Source of the DNA: Yuukianura sp. NJ FZ-2021 | Lineage: Eukaryota | NCBI GenBank assembly: GCA_046563655.1 | Contig: CM102285.1 | Span: forward strand, 744,001 to 808,000 | Direction of reading: 5' to 3' | Length of the DNA stretch: 64,000 nt | Shown here: piece by piece, positions 20,205 through 45,248 of the stretch | Layout of the letters: the number at the start of each line of letters is the position of its first letter | How positions within the stretch are numbered: position 1 is the stretch's first letter | Program-made: the position numbers and the translations under genes | The notes under the pieces: model-generated | Database searches by the model: none | Seen by the model: the letters and a program-made list of their open reading frames with translations, nothing else | Told to the model about the DNA's origin: nothing

Positions 20205-23200
20205 CTATACTACTTTTTCGTCGTCAGCCACGCTAATCCACCAGTGGACTTTGTAGTACTGCTGAAGTTGTTCAACGTTTTCCATTTCGCGTTTCTAAAT
20301 TCAAATTTTCATGTGGAAACAAAAACTCAGTACAAAATTTAAATTAAATGTTGAAGGTTTTATATAAAATATTTAATATAATGAGCTCACCTTTAACTCG
20401 TTCCGAAATTTTTCGGCCTTAGGCAGTGCATCATCTAAGTGAATAGAAAACATCGCACGTAATAATATATCTCGCTGTATATTATGTAATAGTATCCATT
20501 ATTATATAATATTTTATAATATATTCGCTTACCAAAGGGGACAAATTCTGGACGAGGTATCACGTGCCAAAAGTAAACGTCCTTCAAACTTGTCAACACA
20601 AACGTTTTTGCAATGGAAACCAATTTGGAAAAAACGTCTTCACTTCCGTTCAGATAGATGTATTCGAGTCTCTCCAACTCTACAAAGAAAGTTATTCAAT
20701 GTGTTTATATATAATATCACATTATAATATATGTATTATAATACCACGCTTTCACACGGAACATGTAATCCAACTCACTCTGGAATGATGCGACTTGAGG
20801 TTTAGCTCCACACTCTAGGTCAACGTCATGGTGTTCGATATTGTAGCTGTCCCAGGAACGTGCATAAGAAATTACGAGACAACGGACATGCTCAAAGTGG
20901 TTGAACAGACCAATGAGATTGCGCGTAACTTCGTTGTCCAACTGGAGTTTAGTGACATTTGGGAAGAGTTTGTAGTAGGGCAGAGGTGTGTATGCCCGTT
21001 CAGGGTTTGTTGTAACTCCAAGGCGGAATTCTACAACATTTGGGTAGACATTGGAAAGCTCAACTGGAAAATCCAGCTTAGTGAATTCAGTTCGATTTTC
21101 ATCCACAACGACCCGTTTGAGTTGCGGAAGTTTCGTTGGACTTAAAACCTTCAACGGATTTTCCAACCACGTGGCTGAAGTAGTCTTCAGTGAGTGAACG
21201 CGCGGAAAGACGCCCAACAAATCCAATGCATCGTGCGGTGGTGAGTTTATGGCTACTATATTTTTAATTTGATCCTTCCATACGCGGTGACGTACGTTGA
21301 TATCTAAAGGCAACATGATAAACTAACATGCCAAAATGATACAAACACCATGGCAACACTATTTAACAAAATAGCAAAATCCCGTTACCGATTCCCAGGA
21401 TATCCTCAGCGTTCATCTGAAGTTTAAGCTTTCGCGCGTTAGCTTCAAACCACTCTTTGGAATATTCATGAATTTCCATCTTTTTTGTTTTGTAGTTAAG
21501 GACATGTAGATTCCTTCCAAATGTTCGTTCCAAGATGTAACTCCACTTTCGTCTCCGCCCCGAAAAAAATCCTTGTGATGTTCCAAGGAATTCCAATTCA
21601 GGAGCATTTGTCACAACAGCCTTAACCCAGTGCTCAATGCTGAAAATTTTAGTAACTAGTTAGTCTTTTTTGTAAAATTTAACAAATTTTATGGATGAAT
21701 TCAATAGAACACCCGGTGAATGAAATTGGGTAGAGCCTGTGTACAGTGTTATGTTGAAAGTTCTACCCCCAAACTTGATCCCTTTCTGTGTATACTGGAG
21801 TAGACATCAGTTGCAAAATCTTCCACTTCCGAAAAATGCTACTGCATGTCTAGTCGGATAGACACTGCAACAAAAACACAATACTTTCTCTAGAACTCTC
21901 TGTGTCTATTATTTTAGACACTCCATTAAAAAAAGAAAAAAAAAACACCTGACATGAGATTCGAACACACCGCCTAGTCCTTTGTAACTTTACTCATTAA
22001 CCACACTAACCACTTGACCACACCCTTGTTTTTAGTAAACTTATGTGAAACTCGAACTATTTCATAACCCAAGTAGCATTATGATATATAGAATATTTCG
22101 ACTCCCTTCCTAAAATCGATCAATCAGTGGTAGTGTTGAGCAGTGCTTCTGTTTCTTGTGCGTTTTTGTTCATTTCCAGCATCAGCGAAGCCAGACTTTT
22201 CTTTAAATTTTGCTTTTCGAGATGGTACTGCTTAGTGCCAGGCTCAGCTCCATACTGTCGAATAGTGTAATCTAAATACAAAAATATTCGTCTAAGCAAA
22301 ACACTTAATCAGTTAAGGAATAGCTTCAAAATATAAATATCTACAAGAAATGTGTAAAACCGGTTACCAATCAATGCATCTCTCTTCCTCGGATCAATTG
22401 ACGGAAGTTTTTCTGTTTTGTTAGCAGCACATCCTTTACCCATCAAAGAGTAGCCAACAACTTCATGACAGTCAAATAGCTTTTTGAATAAGCATCTTCC
22501 AAAGATGTTTGTGCTGCCGGATGTTGCTTTAACTGTGAGCAAGAATTCCTTTTTCAGCATTACTCCATTTCCAATGTCCGTTTCGTCATTGTGATTTTCT
22601 TGTATTTTCAACACAGACGGAGTGCCACTTTTTAAATCATCTAAATTTTCAATTTGGCCAATTCTACTTGCTCTTATTGAAGTTGACTATGCAACACGCC
22701 GGAAGCACATAATCCCTGCAGCATTGTGGTTCGGATCTCAGAAACCAAACTTCGACACTTTTTTTGGACCATTTATTCGTATCGCAAAATTACTGGGTTC
22801 GGAAAACTATGTACGATGGAATTTCCAAAACACAGCAATTAGGAGCAGAGTGTATTTTCCGATTTGTGTTGCCGACTCACCAGCTCGCTGCCAATGCCAA
22901 GGAACTAAGCAGTTTAATGGCGAATATGGATGCAGTTGGTGCTTGACCCAAGGTCAAAGTTACACTTCAGATGATGGACGTTTCAAGAAATGGGTTTATC
23001 CAGCTTCCGGTTGCAATATTTTGAGAACAAAAGAAAACTTCATGGAACAGTTAAAGGAACTACGGAAGAAAATTGATGCAAAGGAGAACGTAACCTCAGT
23101 TTATGGTATAAAAAAAGCCTCTCAACTAATTTTGCTTCCAAAATTCAACATCGTCAGCGGTTTTGTTTTCGATGCCATGCACGGAATGTATCTCGGAGTC

Positions 23201-26125
23201 GCCAGAGCATTTTTGAATTTTTGGTTAGATTCAAAGTATCATGCATCTGAGTTTTATGTGGGAAACTCCAAGAAAGCTATCAATCAACGATTGAAAACTA
23301 TTTCGGTTCCGGGAAAGTTTAGCAGGAGAGTAAGAACGTTAGACGAAATGAAGTTTTGGAAAGCATCAGAGTGGTCTACATGGATTTCGGTTAGTGCTGT
23401 AGTGCTGGAGGGAATTCTTCGGCCAAAGTACTTGAAGCATTTTGAATTATTCGTGGAATCCGTTTATTTACTCAGCTCTGATAGCATTGAAAAGCTTACA
23501 ATTGACTCTGCGCATGCGATGTTAGTCAAATTCGTGGATCAAGTGCCAGTAATTTACGGATTGGAGTTTTGTTCGTTTAACTGCCACTCTTTGTCACATG
23601 CAGCCTCCTCTGTTCAAAATTGGGGGCCCTTACACCACTATTCCGCGTTTCAGTTTGAAAACTATAACGGAATTTTGGGAAATTCCTTCAATGGAACAAA
23701 TCGGGTTTGCAGGGAAATTTCAAATCGGATGAACGAAATGCACGCAATTCAAGTATTTGCAAATACTCAGCCGAACTCACCCGCATTGACATATTTTGAC
23801 TCAATAGTTAATAATACGAAATACAAAACCAACGCCGAAACTGTCGGGAACGTTTTATTTTTGGGTAATTCTAAAACTAGATTCCTTACAACCGCCCAAA
23901 AACAATCGCTACAAAGTGTAGGAATTATAGCCAAAACAGTACATTGTTATAGATCATGTTATGTAAACGGCAACAAATACACTACGGAAAAAATCAGTGA
24001 ACAGAAGCATTGCGATTTTGTTGTAGAAGTTAACGGAGATATCTTTATTATTAAGGATCTGTTTATAGTTAATTCACTACCAGTTGCATTTGTCAGTAAA
24101 TTGAATGTTGTTAATTTTAACACCTCATGTTTAGTTTACAAAGTTTTAAGAACCTCAAAAGATGTAATTCCTCTTAAAATTGATAATTTTATTTCCAAAT
24201 TTATTGTTAAGCGTGGGTCCGGTGGAATAATAGAAAACATTGTAAAACTTCCAAATAATTCGCTGTTGATGGATTAAGTAAATACACAAGTTCTGATTCG
24301 ACACAATGTCGTTCATATTATGTATATATAACTGTTCACAAGCTGCAGTGTCCATTCGTTTGTGACGAATTCATGTCTAGTGAACCCGCACATAAAGTAC
24401 ACGACACGAATTATGTCGAGATGTTTAGACACAGGTCAGTCGGGAGGAGCTACTGTACACTCGCTGTGTCTAGTTTTGAGGAAATTTTAGGAGAGAGCGT
24501 TCATTAGACATGAATTAGGCATAAAATAAAAAGCCGGGCAGCAAGGTTCATATAAGGAAATAGTTTTTTCTTTAACAGCTTAGGCAATAAGTCGCCTTTT
24601 TATTTTATTCTCTTCGAAATTCCAAAAATTAAAAGACATATCAGCAACTCTCGTTTCCTTGGAAATTTTGCCTCCGAACTTTTCTTATTTTCTTCATTTC
24701 GAGCGTTCCGGTTGGTGCAAACTTTTAAATTCTTAAACAAAAAGAGCGATAAACAAGTTCAGGGGAGAAATATTTGAACAAGGATTTTGGGAACGGGGAC
24801 TTATTGCCTAACCTGTTAAAGAAAAATTATATTCGTTGCTATAGGAACCTTGATCAGACCCTGTAGTCCAAGGTTTGTTGACGTTAGATTTCCTTTAATA
24901 GGTTGGGTAATACTTCATGTATTCTCGATTTTGCAAAAAAAAAAAGTATCTTTTCATCTCGGGCATCGTAATCATAACAATAATTGCAGCTAATTTTTTT
25001 TAAATTTTGAAACGTATTGATACCAAGTTTTTGGATTGGTACTAAATTGGTACTATTTTCTTCCCGTTTTTTTTTGTCAACACGCTAGGTAGTATCTAAC
25101 CTGTTAAAGAAAATTAACTTTTCGTTGTCAAAGAACCTTGCTGTACTCAAAATATAACATTCTTATAAGTTTTCCTCTTACCAGGTACATTCAAAGTCTA
25201 ATACAGACAGCCTCGGGAGCAATGGCGGCGCTGAAAATCCACCCGGCCTAAGTTCATCTACAAACCAGAAGTCCTCTATGGCAATTTGAAGTACTTCGAG
25301 TGACTCGCTCACTTTGTGTAGAAGAGGGCTGATTCGCTCCAGTCCTTCCTTAGTAAATAGTGGATCATCAAAGCCAATTCTATCGGCCATTAAGTCATCG
25401 CTATTGAAATCGTTGATGCACAACTCCTTGATGCAGTTTTCGTATAGAGTTCCAAAGGCATTGAGCTGGGCATCAGTTCCAACATGGACATTCCACAGAA
25501 ATCGCTGGAATGGAATTGGAGTTTCAGCTCTGCCGAATGTGGACAGGAACAGTTCCAGTTGCTCCTTTGTTTCAAGATGAACATAATAGAGGGACTTTAT
25601 GAAATTTGAATTTGAAAATTCGAGAAACATTTGGTTCCATTGGTAGCAAACCAGTCGAGTGGAACACAAGTCTCGAACGTTGAGCTCTTTGAAAATACGT
25701 TCTAAAACCTGTATTATGAAAATTGTAAAAATTAAACACAAATAGTTTACCGTAATGACATATAACTTTAAGTTGAAAATTATTTTATATCTTTATCATT
25801 TAATCCAACGTTTGCAAACAAAAAAAAAATTTCCTCTACACCAGGTTGCCCAATAACTCGACGTTTTTAATTTTGTTAAATAATTGGCAAAAGTTCCTTC
25901 GCAGTTCCTTTTTAATATGGTAACGATTTGTGTATGTAATGTAGTAATAGGAATAGGTTTCAAGTAATATTTTTGGAAACTCTGAGTTATTTGACAACCT
26001 ATTGTAGAGAATACACTTTGGTTGTGAAGGAACCTTGATTTAATCCTTGTTACTTTTTATTATAGCAGCTATTTTTACTTTAATACAAGTCAAGATCAAA
26101 TTACCAATTGCGGAAGCCGGTTCAT
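20205..26125 (-). CDS. F-box/LRR-like protein, copy B (tandem paralogue with a TE-expanded intron)
   Basis: Exon-by-exon similarity to copy A (MNRLPQL|VLERIFKELNVRDLCSTRLVC; RHRVWKDQIKNIVAI). Confidence 0.75.
22140..22600 (-). pseudogene. BEN-domain-like accessory ORF fragment of the CACTA element
   Basis: FGRCLFKKLF..HEVVGYSLMGK...KLPSIDPRKRDALI resembles a BEN domain. It appears to continue after a short intron (DYTIRQY...KKSLASL) and lacks a start codon. Confidence 0.6.
22622..24277 (+). CDS. EnSpm/CACTA-type (Tnp2-like) transposase, N-terminally truncated
   Basis: Motifs (NTD)GVPLFKSS..SIWPI, ADSPAR...GTKQFNGEYGCSWC, D.MH...LGV, WKASEW and N.H.L.H....V..WGPL..YSAF.FE. Confidence 0.88.
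   Translation: MPLFKSSKFSIWPILLALIEVDYATRRKHIIPAALWFGSQKPNFDTFFGPFIRIAKLLGSENYVRWNFQNTAIRSRVYFPICVADSPARCQCQGTKQFNGEYGCSWCLTQGQSYTSDDGRFKKWVYPASGCNILRTKENFMEQLKELRKKIDAKENVTSVYGIKKASQLILLPKFNIVSGFVFDAMHGMYLGVARAFLNFWLDSKYHASEFYVGNSKKAINQRLKTISVPGKFSRRVRTLDEMKFWKASEWSTWISVSAVVLEGILRPKYLKHFELFVESVYLLSSDSIEKLTIDSAHAMLVKFVDQVPVIYGLEFCSFNCHSLSHAASSVQNWGPLHHYSAFQFENYNGILGNSFNGTNRVCREISNRMNEMHAIQVFANTQPNSPALTYFDSIVNNTKYKTNAETVGNVLFLGNSKTRFLTTAQKQSLQSVGIIAKTVHCYRSCYVNGNKYTTEKISEQKHCDFVVEVNGDIFIIKDLFIVNSLPVAFVSKLNVVNFNTSCLVYKVLRTSKDVIPLKIDNFISKFIVKRGSGGIIENIVKLPNNSLLMD
24542..24852. mobile_element. CAAGG-family MITE
   Basis: CAAGGTTC...GAACCTTG ends with inverted TTATTGCCTAACCTGTTAAAGAAAA subterminal motifs. 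Confidence 0.7.
24869..25140. mobile_element. CAAGG-family MITE
   Basis: CAAGGTT...AACCTTG ends; 8-bp flanks CTGTAGTC / CTGTACTC (7/8 match). Confidence 0.75.
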
Positions 26126-26947: not shown

Positions 26948-29508
26948 ATGGACAACGTGGAACTTCGCGGAAGTGGACTCGGGAAAACTGTACTCTTCAC
27001 ATCTGAGTCAGTAGGTGAAGGTCATCCGGACAAGATGTGTGACCAAATCAGCGATGCCATTCTGGACGCTCATCTCAAACAGGACAAAGATGCTAAAGTG
27101 GCATGTGGTAACATCGTCGTAAAATTGTCGTGTCTTATTAATCTAATTAATCTGGTAGCTGTCATCATCTGTCATCGTTTTTTTTGTATTTATAGAGGCT
27201 GCAACGAAGACCGGCATGGTTTTTGTCTTCGGAGAAGTGTCATCTAAAGCCGTCGTGGACACTCAGCAAGTCATCCGTGAAACGGTCAAGAGGATCGGTT
27301 ACGATCACTCATCCAAAGGTTAACTTACTGAACGGATAGTGACATGTCAAGTTGTTCACACCGTTATGTCACCAATGCTGCTGCTGCTAAAATCTGCTTT
27401 ATTTTTCTGGCTACAGGATTTGACTACAAAACATGTAACGTCCTTGTGGCTTTGGAAGAGCAGTCACCGAATATCGCCGCCGGAGTATTTGTGGACAAAC
27501 CGCCAGAGATGATTGGTGCGGGTGACCAGGTATTTGAACGACATTGAACAAAATCTTCTGCAAATTCATCATAATTCTGTGATGATTTCAGGGTCTGATG
27601 TTTGGTTATGCGACGAACGAAACTCCCGAACTCATGCCTCTGACAACCGTACTTGCCCATAAACTCAACGAGAAGTTGGCCCTGTTCCGTCGCAATGGCA
27701 CTTTCCCATGGGCTGGTCCTGACACCAAGACTCAAGTGACTTGTGAATATCGTCTGGACAATGGAGAGGCCATTCCCGTCCGTGTACATACCGTTGTCGT
27801 CTCTGTCCAACATACAGATAAGGTCACTCTGGAAGAGATCCGACGAGAGGTGGAGGACAAGGTGATTCGAGCTACAATTCCAACGATCTACTTGGATGAT
27901 GACTTGATCTGTCACATTAACCCATGCGGGGACTTTCTCATTGGTGGACCACAGGTAGATACCATTTTGGTCACTAACTACAACTTGACAGTTTATGTTT
28001 AACGAGTGCCGTCATGTTACAGGGTGACGCAGGGCTCACTGGACGCAAGATTATCGTCGACACCTATGGTGGGTGGGGAGCTCATGGCGGGGGAGCCTTT
28101 TCGGGCAAGGATCCTACAAAAGTGGACCGATCAGCTGCTTATGCTGCTCGATGGGTGGCCAAGTCCCTCGTGGCTTCTGGTACAGAGGGTGGGGCAGCTT
28201 TATTTGGACACTTTTCGAATTAGTATTTAACTAAGTAATTGTCACCGATGGATTTGGGATGTAGCCTCTACATATAGCCCATTGACCTTAGTAACCAACC
28301 GCAACCTCATTTTCCCCTCAACAAACATCCTTGTGACCTTTCCCGGGGTCACACGATTCCACCCCTCATTTAAAAGTTTCCAGACCCCTTCGATGGTCTG
28401 CTCCCGACGTCGGAATAGGCGCTGTTTAAGTGTCCCAAACCCGTAAAAGTCCATGGGGCTGATGTCTGGGCCTTTGACATGGATGAGGGCCTTTGGCAAA
28501 ACACTTTCGCGGAATGTGACCTTGAGGTCAGCTGCATAGCCTTGACCTTTCCTTGATGTGTGTGATGAAGCTTTATCATGGTGAATAATGACCTTGTTGA
28601 CCTCGTTTCCGTAATTTCCAGGCACGTACACTTCCACCAAAGCCTTCAGAACGTGCTCAATGGAGAATTCAGCGTTGACCTTGACCTTTGGGGGGACTTT
28701 GATGAGGGGTACTACGCCCTTCCCGCACATTGCTCAAACTTTTTCACAAAACTTTTTTTCTCTGTGAAATCCAGGTCTGAGGACTCTTGCTTTTTTTTGG
28801 CAAAATTGGGGTTTGTGACGAATGACACACGTGTTTTTGCCAGTTTTTCGAATTTTACCATTTCAATTAGCTATATTAACGATTGGAGACGCGTTGACAC
28901 TGTGACCTTTGACCCTGAGCCTTTTTTGAACTACTTTGAGCCTTAAACCTTCACTGGAAACTGTTTTTTGATAGTGTTAATTTCGAAACTCAATATCTTT
29001 GGCATTTTTCTGCCGATTTGTATGAAATTCGCGCCACATATTCCCAACAACATTATGAATAAGTGGTTAAAATTTTAAGACTCTAGAAATTACAGGACAA
29101 TAGCAATCAGACTTCAAAGTTGTCCAAATAAAGCTGCCCCACCCTCTGTATTTGCAAGCGCGTTCTGGTTCAAGTATCCTATGCCATTGGTGTTCCTGAA
29201 CCCCTGTCCATTAGTGTATTTGACTACGGCACTTCCAGCAAGGACTCGGATGAACTTCTGGAAATTGTCAAAACCAACTTTGATCTCCGACCTGGTGTCA
29301 TAATTGAGTAAGTTTTGACATGATTATTCCCAGTTTCCACTCCCTGATGAAATCGTGGTCGGCTGAAGCTGATGAGATTGTGCTTTTGTCTGTTCACAGG
29401 GACTTGGACTTGAAGCGACCAATTTATCACAAAACTTCTGTCTACGGTCACTTCGGCCGAAATGATCCGGAATTCACTTGGGAACAGCCCAAGAAACTGA
29501 TCTTCTAG
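26948..29508 (+). CDS. SamS: S-adenosylmethionine synthetase, with one exon interrupted by a transposon
   Basis: [19 protein letters not shown] and GGGAFSGKD signatures; C-terminus YGHFGR..FTWEQPK. Confidence 0.95.
28183..29148 (-). mobile_element. Tc1/mariner-superfamily element (D41D-spaced transposase remnant), internally deleted
   Basis: Perfect 28-bp TIRs CAGAGGGTGGGGCAGCTTTATTTGGACA and a TA TSD. ORF 28242-28730 has HHDKASSH...PDISPMDF. Confidence 0.95.
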
Positions 29509-37228: not shown

Positions 37229-37996
37229 ATGTCCGACTCAGAAACTGCCGTTGAAGCTGAGGCTGCCCCAGCCCCAGCCGCTGCTGCTGCGAAGGGCAAA
37301 GGTCGAGGTCGTCCTGCAGCCACAAAACCGAAAACGCCCAAGGCCAAACCAGCCCCGAAGGAGAAGAAGCCGCCCTTACCGAAGAAAGCAGTGAAGAAGT
37401 CTTCCGACCATCCGAGTACTGCCATCATGGTGACTGAGGCTGTCAAGGGCCTGGGTGAGCGTGGTGGTTCGTCCCTTAAGGCCATCAAGAAGTACATTTC
37501 TGACCATCACAAGGTGGATGCTGAGAAATTGGCTCCCTTCATCCGGAAGTTCCTCAAGTCCGCCGTGGCTGCTGGTACTCTTGTGCAGGTCAAAGGTAAA
37601 GGTGCCAACGGTTCCTTCAAACTTCCTGGAGCTGGTGGGGCGTCCAAGCCAAAGGCTGCTGCCACCAAGAAAGCTGCTTCTCCAAAGAAAACCGCCGTTG
37701 CTAAGAAACCTGCAGCAAAGAAAGCAGCATCTCCCGCGAAGGCTGCTTCCCCACCAAAGAAGTCTCCCCCTAAGAAGGCTCCTGCAGCAGCGAAGAAAGC
37801 CCCACCAAAGGTCTCTCCGAAGAAAGCTGCCCCACCGAAAAAGGCCCCCGCACCGAAGAAGGCTGCTTCCCCACCAAAAGCCGCCTCTCCTGCCCCACCA
37901 AAGGCTGAGGCTAAACCCACCAAGGCTCCTGCTAAATCCAAGAAAGCTCCCGCCAAAAAGCCAGCCGCAAAGAAGGCCCCTGCCAAAAAGAAGTAA
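37229..37996 (+). CDS. His1: Histone H1
   Basis: H15 globular domain (DHPST...GERGGSSLKAIKKYI...KGKGANGSFKL), a K/A/P-rich tail with SPxK motifs, and a 3' stem-loop. Confidence 0.97.
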   Translation: MSDSETAVEAEAAPAPAAAAAKGKGRGRPAATKPKTPKAKPAPKEKKPPLPKKAVKKSSDHPSTAIMVTEAVKGLGERGGSSLKAIKKYISDHHKVDAEKLAPFIRKFLKSAVAAGTLVQVKGKGANGSFKLPGAGGASKPKAAATKKAASPKKTAVAKKPAAKKAASPAKAASPPKKSPPKKAPAAAKKAPPKVSPKKAAPPKKAPAPKKAASPPKAASPAPPKAEAKPTKAPAKSKKAPAKKPAAKKAPAKKK

Positions 37997-38034
37997 ATTA
38001 TTTCCCTCGCATCTCTAGCCATATTTAAACCAAA

Positions 38035-38050
38035 GGCCCTTTTAAGGGCC
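38035..38050 (+). terminator. Histone 3' stem-loop (H1)
   Basis: GGCCCTTTTAAGGGCC followed by ACC and a downstream AAAGAG (HDE-like). Confidence 0.95.
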
Positions 38051-38297
38051 ACCAAAATTTACAAAGAGCGAAAAAAAAGTTTTGGCGGCTTCGGAAGTCC
38101 CTTTGAAAATGAGGGGAGAGAAGAGGGGCGGAGAGGGAGAACACCAATACAAAGCAGTGAGTGAGTCATGCATTCTTCGTTTGTAGACCACCGAGAGGAT
38201 TTTTGTACACTCTTCGGTCCGCACTCCTTGTTAAAAACCATGTACACAAGGGGAAGCAGCCATTCTACGACTCATTTCTCCACTGTTTGTTCTCTGA

Positions 38298-38642
<345 letters not shown>

Positions 38643-38679
38643 ACATCAAAGTCCTCTCCAACATCAACATCCAACCAAC

Positions 38680-38695
38680 GGCCCTTTTAAGGGCC
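38680..38695 (+). terminator. Histone 3' stem-loop (H4)
   Basis: GGCCCTTTTAAGGGCC followed by AAAGAG. Confidence 0.95.
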
Positions 38696-39261
38696 ACCAC
38701 AATTTACAAAGAGCAAAAATCATTATGTTCGTATAATTAAGTTCGAAATTGCATTTTTACTTGACGCTTGCATTGAAGGTGTGTTGTCCCATTGGATTTT
38801 GGTCTGTTAATTTCAAAATCTTGAACAAACTACGATGTGGTTTTGTTACTTTCAAGTTTCAGTTCAATGAAGTAAAAAGTTAAATGAATTACATACAAGA
38901 AATGATGTGCTGAATGATGTTAAAAGTTATTTAATTGATATGAAGTTAAAGCAAATGAAAGGAATTGTTGAAATCTAGGGAGAATTCAGTTTGTTTCGAA
39001 AGTTCTGGGTTGTTTTAACAGCATAATTGCAACCGTGTCAGTAAAGAATTGACGAGTCGATGAAGAAAACGCAGTTTAGTTAGTATTTAGTTTAATCATG
39101 ATTAAAACTTGAACGTAATTAACGTCATTCAGTTTTTGTTTCGATTGTTCCCGTCGTCTTCTTTATTTTGCCTTTCGGTCCGCACCAGAAGTTTGAAAGT
39201 TTGAATTTCCCGCAGCTGCTGTTTTTTTGTCGCTCCTCCTACCCAAAATTCCCCTTCGTGT

Positions 39262-39775
<514 letters not shown>

Positions 39776-39815
39776 AAATCTACACAATTCAACTTTACTT
39801 CTATTTATGACCAAA

Positions 39816-39831
39816 GGCCCTTTTAAGGGCC
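39816..39831 (+). terminator. Histone 3' stem-loop (H2A)
   Basis: GGCCCTTTTAAGGGCC followed by AAAGAG. Confidence 0.95.
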
Positions 39832-40438
39832 ACCAAAATTTACAAAGAGCAAAAACCTAACCAGAATCAAATACAATTCACAACTTTGCAATTAATTTTT
39901 TAAACATTCCGTCGTCCGGGTGTTCACTTTGATTTTTACACAGTTCGAATTCCATTTAAATCTCAATGACGAAATAAATAAAACTTTGACCTCCACTCAA
40001 AATGTCAATTGAATTTGAACGATAAACTCCGCTCACCTCGATCTGTTCAAAAGCAAATCATGAACTCTGAGCTTAATTTCATGCCGAAATTAAACTCAAC
40101 GTCAACTCATTAACGGAATTTAAAGATGTGCTGATTCTATCTTGTCATCAGTCATCATAAAAAGCTCTGTTTTTAATTTTTAGCTTTAGCTAGGCACCAT
40201 TTTCTGCTTTTTCGTTTTTCGACGTGTTTTTTCAATAGTTTTTGGCAATTCTCCGCTTCATCTGGCAAGAACGGAGAAGCATTTGAATTTGGAGAAAGAG
40301 GGGGAGAAAAATCAGAAGCCGATGATGACGACGCTCTTTTGTTTTTTGTTTGTGTTTTTGGCACGGGGGTTTGGTGGAGTTGGGATGGTCCCTCCATGCA
40401 TTTTGTGCATTGCCACCCCATCCATTTCACCACCCTCC

Positions 40439-40493
40439 AACTCCAAAAGAGTAAAATCATCTCGAATTCTACTCCTCTCGGGTCCATATAAAA
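40439..40493 (+). promoter_or_regulatory. Original H2B promoter, now separated from the ORF
   Basis: AACTCCAAAAGAGTAAAA plus TATAAAA at 40487, followed by a leader and ATGCCAC at 40575. Confidence 0.75.
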
Positions 40494-40581
40494 GGGGAGA
40501 CACAACAGAGTCCTCTCATTCACTCCACAAAAGTCTCTCGATTCTCTCTCTCGACAACCGAAAACCAAGTCAAGATGCCAC

Positions 40582-41916
40582 CATCGTCCGAAACTATCCT
40601 GTACTAATTTCTCAAATTTACAGTGCGGTATCAATAACGTTAGAGCGGAAAATGCATCAAAATTACACAATTAATTTTTTGAACTTAAAAAATTAAAAAA
40701 TAATTAAAAAATTTTTTTCTTCAAATTTTTTAATTTCCGGTTGAGAAATGTTGTTTAACTCGTAAAGTATAACTACCGCTCGAAAGCAAAATGGCGGCCA
40801 CTGCACATGCAATATGCAAATACAATGCTACAACGTTGAAAAATTTAGTGGAACCGATTACCATAAACGTATTATAACGTTACATGTAGGTAATACATTT
40901 AATAAGAGCTGGTTGTAACGACCGCTAGGTGTACCGCTTGCTAGCTACGCTCCGACCATCCATTACTACTAAACCCCATTTTCGCAATTAACAACCTATT
41001 TAACAGTAATAAAAAGTGAATATACTCATTTTGAGCTGTTTTCACGACCGCTAGGTGTACCGCTTGCTAGCTACGCTCCGACCATCAATTACAACTAAAC
41101 CACATTTTCACAATTAACAACCTATTTACTTGCAACACAAAGCGAACATATTCATTCTGAGCTCTTTTAACAACCGCTAGGTGTACCGCTTGCTAGCTAC
41201 GCTCCGACTATCAATTACAACTAAACCCCAGATATATTACAATTTAAATGTCGAAGCGTACCTAGCAAGCGTTGCATTTAGCGGTCACTAAACTTAGGTT
41301 AGAATACATTCATAAGCTTAAGGCAACATGTACAACATTTTTTAGTGTTAAAGCCGTATTAATATTAATTTTAATGTCGAAGCGTAGCTAGCAAGCGGGG
41401 CATTTAGCGGTCACTAAACGAAGGTTAGAATACATGCATAAGCTTTAGGCAACATGGATAACATTTTTTAGTTGTGGAACCGTATTAATATTAATGTTGA
41501 TGTTAAAGCGTAGCTAGTAAGCGGTGCATCTAGCGGTCACAAAAAATGGCTTACAGCACATGTATTAACTTCCTGTTACAGGTTCTTACGATTGTTATAC
41601 GACAAGCGTGAATGTGTATCGTTAATCGTGAAGTTTTGATTGGGTGTTACAACATCCGCCATTTTGCTTTCGAGCGGTACTTAGGGTAATTAACGGTACT
41701 TTGGAAATCCAAAAGAAAAAAAAATTTTTTAATTTAAAAAAATTTTTTTTTTAATTAAAAATTAATTATTTTTTAAATTTTAATAATGTTATTTAATTTA
41801 TGTTAATCTGTTTTTCATCAATAAACTGTTAATGCAACACACTGTAAATTCGAGAAATTGAGTATAGCCTCGACAGGGAGGATATATAGAGTCGTACAGG
41901 ATAGTTTCGGACGATG
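40582..41916. mobile_element. Foldback-type non-autonomous TIR element (P/hAT-like, 8-bp TSD)
   Basis: Perfect 23-bp TIR CATCGTCCGAAACTATCCTGTAC, TSD GATGCCAC (40574-40581 and 41917-41924), and mirrored internal 126-bp repeats. Confidence 0.93.
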
Positions 41917-41917
41917 G

Positions 41918-42292
41918 ATGCCACCAAAGGTGAGCGGAAAAGCGGCGAAGAAGGCAGGGAAGGCGCAGAAGAACATCTCGAAGGGCGACAAGAAGAAGAA
42001 GAAGATGAAGCGGAAGGAGTCCTACGCCATCTACATCTACAAGGTCCTCAAGCAAGTCCATCCAGACACTGGCGTCTCCTCCAAAGCCATGTCCATCATG
42101 AACTCTTTCGTCAACGACATCTTCGAAAGGATCGCAGCAGAGGCCTCACGACTCTCGCACTACAACAAGCGCACCACCATCACTTCCCGCGAAATTCAAA
42201 CTGCAGTGCGACTCCTGCTGCCTGGAGAACTGGCTAAACACGCAGTGTCTGAAGGGACGAAGGCTGTGACCAAGTACACTTCTTCCAAGTAA
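41918..42292 (+). CDS. His2B: Histone H2B
   Basis: [18 protein letters not shown]...AVTKYTSSK; intact ORF. Confidence 0.97.
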
Positions 42293-42323
42293 ATCTCAAC
42301 ATCACCAGTCCAGTTAAACCAAA

Positions 42324-42339
42324 GGCCCTTTTAAGGGCC
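42324..42339 (+). terminator. Histone 3' stem-loop (H2B)
   Basis: GGCCCTTTTAAGGGCC followed by AAAGAG. Confidence 0.95.
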
Positions 42340-42637
42340 ACCACAATCTACAAAGAGCAAAAAAAAAGTTTAAAAAAAGTCTGTAAAGAGAGGGAAGGGA
42401 AAGAAATCGATTTTCGAGTAAAGTCTTGTTTAATTTAGAGCCGGGAGTTTCACCAGGTTCGGCTTGTGGAGTTGCAGAGGCCACCTCTTAATTTCTTGAG
42501 TCAATTGCAGTTGTTTTAATTGAGTTTAGTGTATCGAGATTTGTAAAAGACTTGCAAAAAAGTTAGAATATCATTAAAAAGTTTGCGGTTTGATTGAATT
42601 TGTTGTTTCATCTCTGTGTTATTTCCCTTCTCCTCTT

Positions 42638-42757
42638 GCCAAGGTCCATACCACGTTGAAAGCACCAGTTCTCGTCCGATCACTGAAGTTAAGCAACGTC
42701 GGGCCCGGTTAGTACTTGGATGGGTGACCGCCTGGGAACCCCGGGTGCTCTTGGCAT
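42638..42757 (+). rRNA. 5S rRNA: 5S rRNA, copy 1
   Basis: GCCAAGGTCCATACCACGTTGAA...GTTAGTACTTGGATGGGTGACCGCCTGGGAA...TTGGC with an oligo-T Pol III terminator. Confidence 0.97.
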
Positions 42758-43215: not shown

Positions 43216-43941
43216 TTAGGTGTTGCAATTTTTCCATGAGAATGTAGCGGTTTTGGTTGTATCAAAACCTAAGCTTTTTAAAACCATTAGTACTGCCCTT
43301 TTCGTTTTCCTTTTAAGACGCTTCCTGGGGGACTCGACAAAGTAAACAGTCATTCCAGAGTAACACATAGTGTCAATTACAGTTGATCCATCTGTCCACA
43401 CAATTGCACGCATAACGCTTCCATCACCTACCAAATTCTCGTATATTTTTGTATTCTTTTTGCTCATCTTTTCCAAAATTGCGTGACGAAAGGCACAGTT
43501 TTCGTGAACGGAAGGTTTGTTTCCAACGTAGACCGTTTCGACGCACCGTATTGCCTCGGTTGGAGATTGGCCCATTTGATATGTCCATCCAACTCTAACG
43601 TTTCCATGACTAAAGGTATGGGAGAATCGTCCACCGGACATCACAACCTGATTGGATATGAAGCAGATCGAGTCCAAGTCGGCATCACTAGAAATTGGTA
43701 CTCCGCGCATGTACAGGCTGTCGCCATATGCTCCAAGTTGACTACTCATGACTACGTAATTGGCTTTGCTCAGAGCCCTTTGAAGTGCACTGTGATTGTG
43801 CGGTAAAGATTGACCGAGGCAGCGACAATCGTCACATTGCGGCTCCAGAATGTCTTCCATTCCCCACGATTTTCCTTCTACACGTTCTGTAAATAACGTA
43901 ACTAAAACAAGAAGTAGATACTTCCAACTGTGTAAAAACAT
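43216..43941 (-). CDS. Secreted protein, possibly lipocalin-like
   Basis: Uninterrupted 241-aa ORF with a signal peptide. The C-terminal part (VWTDG....C; ESP..L......LKSLGFDT......NC) resembles lipocalin SCR2/SCR3 and the terminal helix. Confidence 0.6.
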   Translation of the reverse strand: MFLHSWKYLLLVLVTLFTERVEGKSWGMEDILEPQCDDCRCLGQSLPHNHSALQRALSKANYVVMSSQLGAYGDSLYMRGVPISSDADLDSICFISNQVVMSGGRFSHTFSHGNVRVGWTYQMGQSPTEAIRCVETVYVGNKPSVHENCAFRHAILEKMSKKNTKIYENLVGDGSVMRAIVWTDGSTVIDTMCYSGMTVYFVESPRKRLKRKTKRAVLMVLKSLGFDTTKTATFSWKNCNT

Positions 43942-45128: not shown

Positions 45129-45248
45129 GCCAAGGTCCATACCACGTTGAAAGCACCAGTTCTCGTCCGATCACTGAAGTTAAGCAACGTCGGGCCCGGT
45201 TAGTACTTGGATGGGTGACCGCCTGGGAACCCCGGGTGCTCTTGGCTT
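45129..45248 (+). rRNA. 5S rRNA: 5S rRNA, copy 2
   Basis: Essentially identical to copy 1, with an oligo-T terminator. Confidence 0.97.

What the first reader, a model, noticed from the sequence alone, without database searches (positions are those of the whole stretch)
40574..41924. Transposon TSD duplicates the H2B start codon and separates the gene from its promoter
Seen: the 8-bp TSD GATGCCAC contains the ATG. The native promoter and leader (40439-40574) now run into ATG-CCA-C and then the 1335-bp element, while a complete H2B ORF with its stem-loop remains downstream. The right arm has ~33 extra bp absent from the left arm, including TATATA at 41883-41888, about 30 bp before the new ATG. 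Inference: this H2B copy is either silenced or driven from a TE-supplied TATA. Perfect TIRs and TSD suggest a recent insertion.
Basis: partly seen in the sequence, partly recalled or inferred. Interest (0 to 1): 0.72.

Follow-up and report, generated by a model that had tools for sequence, protein, structure and literature searches.

The report
Foldback transposon interrupting one histone gene
A non-coding cut-and-paste transposon has landed in the start codon of one of seven equivalent histone H2B genes and most likely switched that copy off; the TATA-like box at its end is a standard part of the transposon family, not a new promoter made for the gene.

Summary
A 1335-bp element (40582-41916) has 23-bp perfect terminal inverted repeats and an 8-bp target duplication that contains the H2B ATG. 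Its right arm carries 33 extra bp with TATATA at 41883. It belongs to a small non-autonomous foldback-type family: 7 copies with both ends, each with a different 8-bp TSD. All 7 have the longer right end, so the asymmetry is a family trait, not an adaptation to H2B. The substitute-promoter idea fits poorly. At native spacing the start site would fall at about 41914, with no initiator motif and a leader of at most 6 nt. The element's own end adds an out-of-frame ATG in better context 4 nt upstream, and the duplicated ATG loses its -3 A. No convincing splice rescue was found. Six uninterrupted copies encode the identical protein, so losing this copy is probably tolerated. Silencing is inferred; no RNA was laid on the locus. 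No transposase partner was found, so hAT versus P stays open. Foldback elements in histone genes are in print (Chironomus TFB1). The scan's index held no look-alike of this element.

The parts
40366..40518 (+). Native H2B upstream region: conserved box at 40441, TATA at 40487, Inr-like TCATTC with A at 40518 (31 nt after TATA)
   Evidence: same layout in four paralogs shown; function inferred
40518..40574 (+). Native 57-nt leader (predicted)
   Evidence: start site inferred from motif spacing
40574..40581 (+). Left copy of 8-bp TSD with the original ATG (40575); reads into the element as a 10-codon ORF ending at a TAA
40582..41916 (.). 1335-bp non-autonomous foldback-type TIR element; no ORF over 50 codons lies wholly inside
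40582..40604 (+). Left 23-bp perfect TIR
40606..40625 (+). Left subterminal inverted repeat (partner 41840-41859)
40912..41289 (+). Three 126-bp tandem repeats, left arm
41241..41618 (-). Three 126-bp tandem repeats, right arm, sharing an inverted core motif with the left set
41861..41893 (.). 33-bp right-arm-only spacer: imperfect hairpin containing TATATA (41883-41888); family feature
41894..41916 (-). Right 23-bp perfect TIR; its last three bases form an ATG at 41914, out of frame with H2B (107-codon ORF, no Pfam match)
41917..41924 (+). Right TSD copy with duplicated ATG (41918); -3 base is now T instead of A
41918..42292 (+). Intact H2B ORF, protein identical to six other copies
42319..42364 (+). 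Histone 3' stem-loop
37229..37996 (+). H1 gene of the same cluster
38331..38642 (+). H4 gene of the same cluster
   Evidence: (named from its sequence), stem-loop
39401..39775 (+). H2A gene of the same cluster
   Evidence: (named from its sequence), stem-loop
42638..42756 (+). 5S rRNA gene linked to the cluster

Best explanation
A non-autonomous cut-and-paste element of a small foldback-type family (CA..TG ends, 8-bp TSD; transposase supplied in trans, hAT- or P-type, not identified) inserted into a staggered cut spanning the H2B start codon, and repair duplicated GATGCCAC. The insertion is shown. The rest is inferred: the native promoter now yields a transcript with a 10-codon ORF that runs into AT-rich element DNA with five AATAAA/ATTAAA hexamers, so this copy makes little or no H2B and is a young pseudogene buffered by six intact copies. 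The extra 33 bp is a structural part of one element end (asymmetric spacer or hairpin between TIR and subterminal repeat), probably serving transposase recognition or the parent element's own inward promoter.
For: Junction reconstitutes the paralog sequence. Seven two-ended copies have seven different 8-bp TSDs, six perfect and one 7/8. The subterminal ATTTCT motif lies at 26-28 from the left end and 51-60 from the right end in 7 of 7. The spacer is a perfect 13-bp hairpin in 3 copies. Outward TATAWA is present in 4 of 7 copies; the window copy has no Inr motif 21-39 nt downstream of it. The TIR ATG at 41914 has A at -3 and G at +4 and is out of frame, while the H2B ATG has T at -3. In-frame splice combinations need donors matching only 4 of 9 consensus positions and acceptors with at most 7 of 14 pyrimidines. 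Seven loci encode the identical 124-aa H2B, and six are contiguous with their promoter. An inward TATA with a loose Inr-like motif at 29-31 nt occurs in 4 of 7 copies.
Against: No RNA was laid on the locus, so silencing is not shown. The ORF has no amino-acid change and only 1 private, synonymous change; that fits a recent insertion (under about 1% neutral divergence) but equally fits continued selection or gene conversion. In another sample the deepest element contigs differ from the window copy at 13 of 202 and 8 of 148 positions, so the window copy is not from that sample's commonest subfamily and could be older than assumed. No listed contig bridged either junction. No autonomous partner was found. 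The inward Inr motif is loose and can match by chance.
Confidence: 0.8

Rival explanations
1. The element's right end works as a substitute promoter: TATATA at 41883 fires near 41914 and some H2B is made from a nearly leaderless mRNA or by leaky scanning past the TIR ATG.
For: TATATA is present and outward-readable. Only about 1.3% of window positions have a TATAWA 28-40 nt upstream. ORF and stem-loop are intact. The native upstream elements remain 1.4 kb away. A start at 41915-41917 would skip the out-of-frame ATG.
Against: The position is fixed by family structure, so the 1.3% figure is no sign of selection. No Inr. Leader of at most 6 nt against 57 nt natively; competing out-of-frame ATG in stronger context; -3 A lost. 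The closest relative has TATACA there.
Confidence: 0.08
2. The native promoter still drives the gene and most of the element is spliced out, introner-like, giving an N-terminally altered H2B or a new leader.
For: Ten GT-AG pairs from donors 40586 or 40601 restore the frame; for example 40586 to 41904 adds 8 residues. Earlier AI notes report introner-like MITEs of other families in this genome (not checked).
Against: Those donors match 4 of 9 consensus positions, the acceptors lack a pyrimidine tract, and a nearer AG at 41899 gives no in-frame product. Five polyA-like hexamers lie in the element. Stem-loop histone genes are usually intronless (established knowledge).
Confidence: 0.05
3. The insertion is a segregating or strain-private allele, and most individuals carry the empty site.
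For: Other samples show element ends joined to a flank not among the assembly's copies (X2, loose end at 40580), and element depth well above flank depth (X1: 853 against 25), which suggests recent mobility. This is compatible with the best explanation.
Against: One low-depth contig in X1 matches the window copy at 163 of 163 bases, so this copy or a twin is present there. No exact empty-site joint (skip of 1343) was listed, though the tables were truncated.
Confidence: 0.45
4. Assembly artefact.
For: No listed public contig spans a junction.
Against: An exact 8-bp duplication that restores the paralog sequence, family-typical ends, no gaps, and flanks identical in independent runs.
Confidence: 0.02

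Closest known systems
Foldback elements in histone genes: TFB1 of Chironomus thummi (Hankeln and Schmidt 1990; title only, seen in the reference lists of PMC4079207 and PMC7144091)
   Same: A foldback transposon sitting in a histone gene cluster of an arthropod.
   Different: I saw only the title, so insertion point, TSD and sequence could not be compared.
Sea urchin TU elements (Liebermann et al. 1983, cited as a foldback in a passage of PMC4079207). That TU1 lay in an H2B orphon with an 8-bp duplication is recalled, not read.
   Same: Long modular inverted arms with internal repeats and no ORF; by recall, an insertion into an H2B gene.
   Different: No sequence comparison was made. This H2B sits in an H1-H4-H2A-H2B-5S cluster, not alone.
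Tetris (Drosophila virilis, PMC4079207, passages) and Tm1 (Meloidogyne, PMC3169594, passages): non-autonomous foldback elements assigned to Mutator
   Same: Long composite inverted arms with internal tandem repeats, no ORF, 8-10-bp TSDs, few complete copies; Tm1 also has asymmetric ends.
   Different: The TSD here is 8 bp in 7 of 7 copies with an nTnnnnAn bias and CA..TG ends; Tm1 is mostly 9 bp with no target preference.
hAT and P superfamily non-autonomous elements, including the P-type foldback Galileo (PMC3169594 passage for Galileo; end and target rules recalled)
   Same: 8-bp TSD, CA..TG termini, T at position 2 and A at position 7 of the TSD, and unequal TIR-to-subterminal spacing at the two ends.
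   Different: No transposase gene with these TIRs was found. The P, hAT and MULE elements resolved in this genome have other ends.

Membership tests
Non-autonomous TIR DNA transposon | Terminal inverted repeats | tested here: met
   23-bp perfect TIR
Non-autonomous TIR DNA transposon | Fixed-length TSD that differs between copies | tested here: met
   7 of 7 two-ended copies have an 8-bp TSD, all different; one has 1 mismatch
Non-autonomous TIR DNA transposon | No transposase ORF | tested here: met
   No internal ORF over 50 codons
Foldback-type structure | Long imperfect inverted arms with internal tandem repeats | tested here: met
   Arms invertedly alike over most of the length; 3+3 repeats of 126 bp
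hAT superfamily | 8-bp TSD, nTnnnnAn preference, YA..TR ends (rules recalled) | tested here: met
   11 of 14 half-sites fit; binomial P 3.5e-4, or 0.006 after a x16 correction; small, post hoc sample
hAT superfamily | hAT transposase with the same TIRs | tested here: inconclusive
   9 PF05699 matches. None had this TIR within the short loci. 4 of 9 were extended to 10 kb and showed other TIRs.
P superfamily | 7-8-bp TSD and CA..TG ends (recalled) | tested here: met
P superfamily | P-type transposase with the same TIRs | tested here: inconclusive
   5 PF21787 matches. 3 had resolvable, different TIRs; none of the 5 had this TIR pair. A partner may be absent from this assembly.
Mutator/MULE | Mostly 9-bp TSD, G-starting ends, MULE transposase | tested here: not met
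   TSD is always 8 bp and ends are CA..TG. 3 PF10551 matches, 2 extended, none with this TIR.
Histone-targeted (site-specific) transposon | Repeated insertion at the same gene family | tested here: not met
   1 of 7 H2B copies is hit. The 5 other compact copies lack the histone promoter motif nearby.
Introner | Splice sites at the element ends that restore the frame | tested here: inconclusive
   Only weak donor and acceptor pairs; no RNA
TE-derived alternative promoter | Start site mapped in the element and transcript covering the gene | not testable with these tools

The most novel reading that the evidence does not exclude
Because the TSD rebuilt the start codon and every copy of this family carries a TATA-bearing hairpin about 30 nt inside one end, the insertion swapped the H2B promoter in one step. 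This copy would be expressed as a nearly leaderless, stem-loop-ended mRNA outside normal histone control, and its unchanged protein would reflect continued selection.
Probability: 0.08. Interest if true: 0.6.

Novelty: new member of a known kind. Interest (0 to 1): 0.24.

Why it matters
As read here it is a tidy example of birth-and-death in a small histone family: one of seven H2B copies is knocked out by a recently mobile element. It also describes a small foldback family with a conserved asymmetric hairpin end. It would matter more if copy-specific RNA showed a canonical histone gene running on a transposon promoter with almost no leader, since that would test how much of the histone promoter and 5' UTR is needed.

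Tried and rejected
Search for an autonomous partner. 10 kb beside four unpaired ends held no transposase ORF tied to these ends. Further 13-mer and 2-mismatch TIR hits were truncated copies, parts of other repeats or chance. The P, hAT and MULE loci examined have other TIRs; only one Pfam family per superfamily was searched. A 40-kb two-ended copy at C3:5.22-5.26 Mb holds nested retroelement and other ORFs, none of which I recognised as a TIR transposase (by eye).

Metagenome scans. The gapped pattern found 0. The 17-mer found 54 single matches, none with a paired end and TSD, read as chance.

Reads. 6 runs were listed, none holding half the words. Four DNA runs, kept as contigs only, were laid; no listed piece bridged a junction and the tables were truncated, so presence or absence in other samples is undecided.

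Histone targeting was rejected (1 of 7). Splice rescue found only weak sites.

Literature. Nine searches listed no paper on this family or locus; two searches returned nothing, so the superfamily end rules are from recall. Subscription papers (TU1, TFB1) are not in the library. No supplements were opened.

Full report
Setting. The window is G000:C3:744001-808000 of a 98.7-Mb, 22-contig animal genome. An arthropod, probably a springtail, is my impression and the wording of earlier AI notes; I did not test it. The finding lies in a same-strand cluster H1 (37229), H4 (38331), H2A (39401), H2B (41918) and 5S rRNA (42638), with four histone stem-loops. H3 is absent from the window. Histone-5S linkage is described for Artemia and Mytilus (PMC13525598, passages).

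Observation. All stated coordinates hold: TSD GATGCCAC at 40574-40581 and 41917-41924, element 40582-41916 (1335 bp), 23-bp perfect TIR, 33 extra bases in the right arm, and TATATA at 41883. Deleting the element and one TSD gives the leader-ATG junction of the uninterrupted paralog at C3:664 kb. The arms remain imperfectly inverted, with a 20-bp subterminal repeat and three 126-bp repeats on each side in opposed orientation. No ORF over 50 codons lies within it. This is a non-autonomous element of foldback structure.

The family. DNA and pattern searches gave seven copies with both ends. They are the window copy; C8:6.013 Mb (1379 bp, 83% by BLAST); C8:6.771, C4:3.880 and C4:3.217 Mb (1067-1141 bp, a second subfamily); C6:6.400 Mb (266 bp); and C3:5.22-5.26 Mb (40 kb with nested insertions). 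At least four one-ended remnants also exist. These counts are lower bounds. Each copy has a different 8-bp TSD, and 11 of 14 half-sites fit nTnnnnAn. In 7 of 7 the subterminal motif lies at 26-28 from the left end and 51-60 from the right. The extra stretch is a perfect 13-bp hairpin in three copies, imperfect in the window copy and its closest relative, and a hairpin of different sequence in the 266-bp copy. The asymmetry is therefore a family trait. The superfamily is unresolved: ends and TSD suit hAT or P by recalled rules, but the P, hAT and MULE transposase loci examined have other TIRs. PMC3169594 (passages) notes that foldback structure arises under different transposases.

Effect on H2B. 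The native promoter has TATA at 40487 and an Inr-like A 31 nt later, giving a 57-nt leader. Its ATG now opens a 10-codon ORF, followed by five polyA-like hexamers in the element. For the substitute promoter, the same spacing from 41883 points to 41912-41916, where no Inr motif lies, which would leave a leader of at most 6 nt. The TIR ends in ATG (41914) with A at -3 and G at +4, out of frame, while the duplicated H2B ATG has lost its -3 A. Outward TATAWA occurs in 4 of 7 copies, and the closest relative has TATACA. Read inward, the same TATA has a loose Inr-like motif 29-31 nt on in those 4 copies; this could be the parent element's own promoter, but the motif is weak evidence. Splice enumeration over 7 donors and 19 acceptors gave in-frame products with the N-terminus only from two donors matching 4 of 9 consensus positions; two leader donors gave only a truncated 95-aa product.

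Redundancy and age. Seven loci encode the identical 124-aa H2B (20 candidates scored), and the other six are contiguous with their promoters. The window ORF differs from its nearest paralog by 5 synonymous changes, against 11 for the neighbouring H2A and 2 for H4, and it has one private synonymous change. Zero replacements in about 286 non-synonymous sites cap neutral decay at about 1% if the gene is dead. This cannot tell a young pseudogene from a conserved gene. Four public DNA runs (contigs only; at most 2 samples) show identical flanks, element depth above flank depth, one element end on a flank not among the assembly copies, and a deep subfamily about 6% different from the window copy. 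One shallow contig is identical to the window copy over 163 bases. None of the listed pieces bridges a junction. The family thus looks recently mobile, and the age and frequency of this insertion are not fixed.

Comparison with what is known. A foldback element in histone genes is in print for Chironomus (title only). Sea urchin TU elements are cited as foldbacks, and their H2B insertion is my recall. Tetris and Tm1 are structural analogues. Nine literature searches listed nothing on this family, and the scan's index held no look-alike of the element. There is no sign of histone targeting.

Verdict. The feature is real and correctly described. Most likely it is an ordinary insertional knock-out of one redundant H2B copy (0.8), with a small chance of TE-driven (0.08) or splice-rescued (0.05) expression. 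It is a new member of a known kind; interest 0.24. A side observation may deserve its own look: the H2A/H2B promoter module recurs at about 50 non-histone sites, many near contig ends.

Noticed in passing
window 40365-40525; L036-L040, L194-L197 (e.g. G000:C4:42392-42882, C8:65101-70800, C5:991463-993159): The H2A/H2B promoter module (upstream boxes, TATA, Inr-like TCATTC) matches about 50 further sites at 76-88% identity (60 matches listed), many within 0.3 Mb of contig ends. In the four 10-kb stretches checked it sits at the end of repeats of about 1.2 kb with no histone ORF, in front of short related non-coding sequences. No Rfam family reached its cut-off, and the consensus fold of 9 copies was weak, with little covariation. 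It may be an unannotated small-RNA gene family or a repeat that captured a histone promoter.
   Followed up: partly
window 37229-42756: The cluster is H1-H4-H2A-H2B-5S, all on one strand, with no H3 in the window; the related cluster at C3:664 kb has H3 between H1 and H4. At least 6 of the 7 H2B copies have a 5S gene just downstream.
   Followed up: partly
window 45129-45246: Second, identical 5S rRNA gene copy.
   Followed up: no
H2B/H2A/H4 paralogs on C3 versus C1: Two sequence groups: about 5-11 differences within a contig and 30-46 between contigs for H2B and H2A, nearly all synonymous, which suggests local homogenisation.
   Followed up: partly
L058 (G000:C7:9857639 onward): A truncated copy of the family is embedded in a long tandem array with a unit of about 56 bp.
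   Followed up: no
G000:C3:5217533-5257825 (L070, L083-L086): An older family copy stretched to 40 kb by nested insertions, including retroelement ORFs and polymerase-like ORFs in pieces; TSD 7 of 8.
   Followed up: partly
L004 443-1578, L005 1501-2567, L006 438-1578: Open frames of 80-109 codons cross the empty sites of three other copies, so these may also interrupt exons; not verified.
   Followed up: no
window 43216-43941 (-): Intact 241-aa ORF with a signal-peptide-like start and many cysteines, no Pfam match; a similar ORF lies in L067.
   Followed up: partly
window 23042-24277 (+) and 28242-28730 (-): Transposon-like ORFs by eye; the second lies within what looks like a SAM synthetase gene. 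No Pfam match for either.
   Followed up: partly
L064 2704-7926, L066 2693-6301, L068 3635-7030, L136, L137, L138, L139, L134: P-type, hAT and MULE elements with intact TIRs and TSDs are present in this genome.
   Followed up: partly
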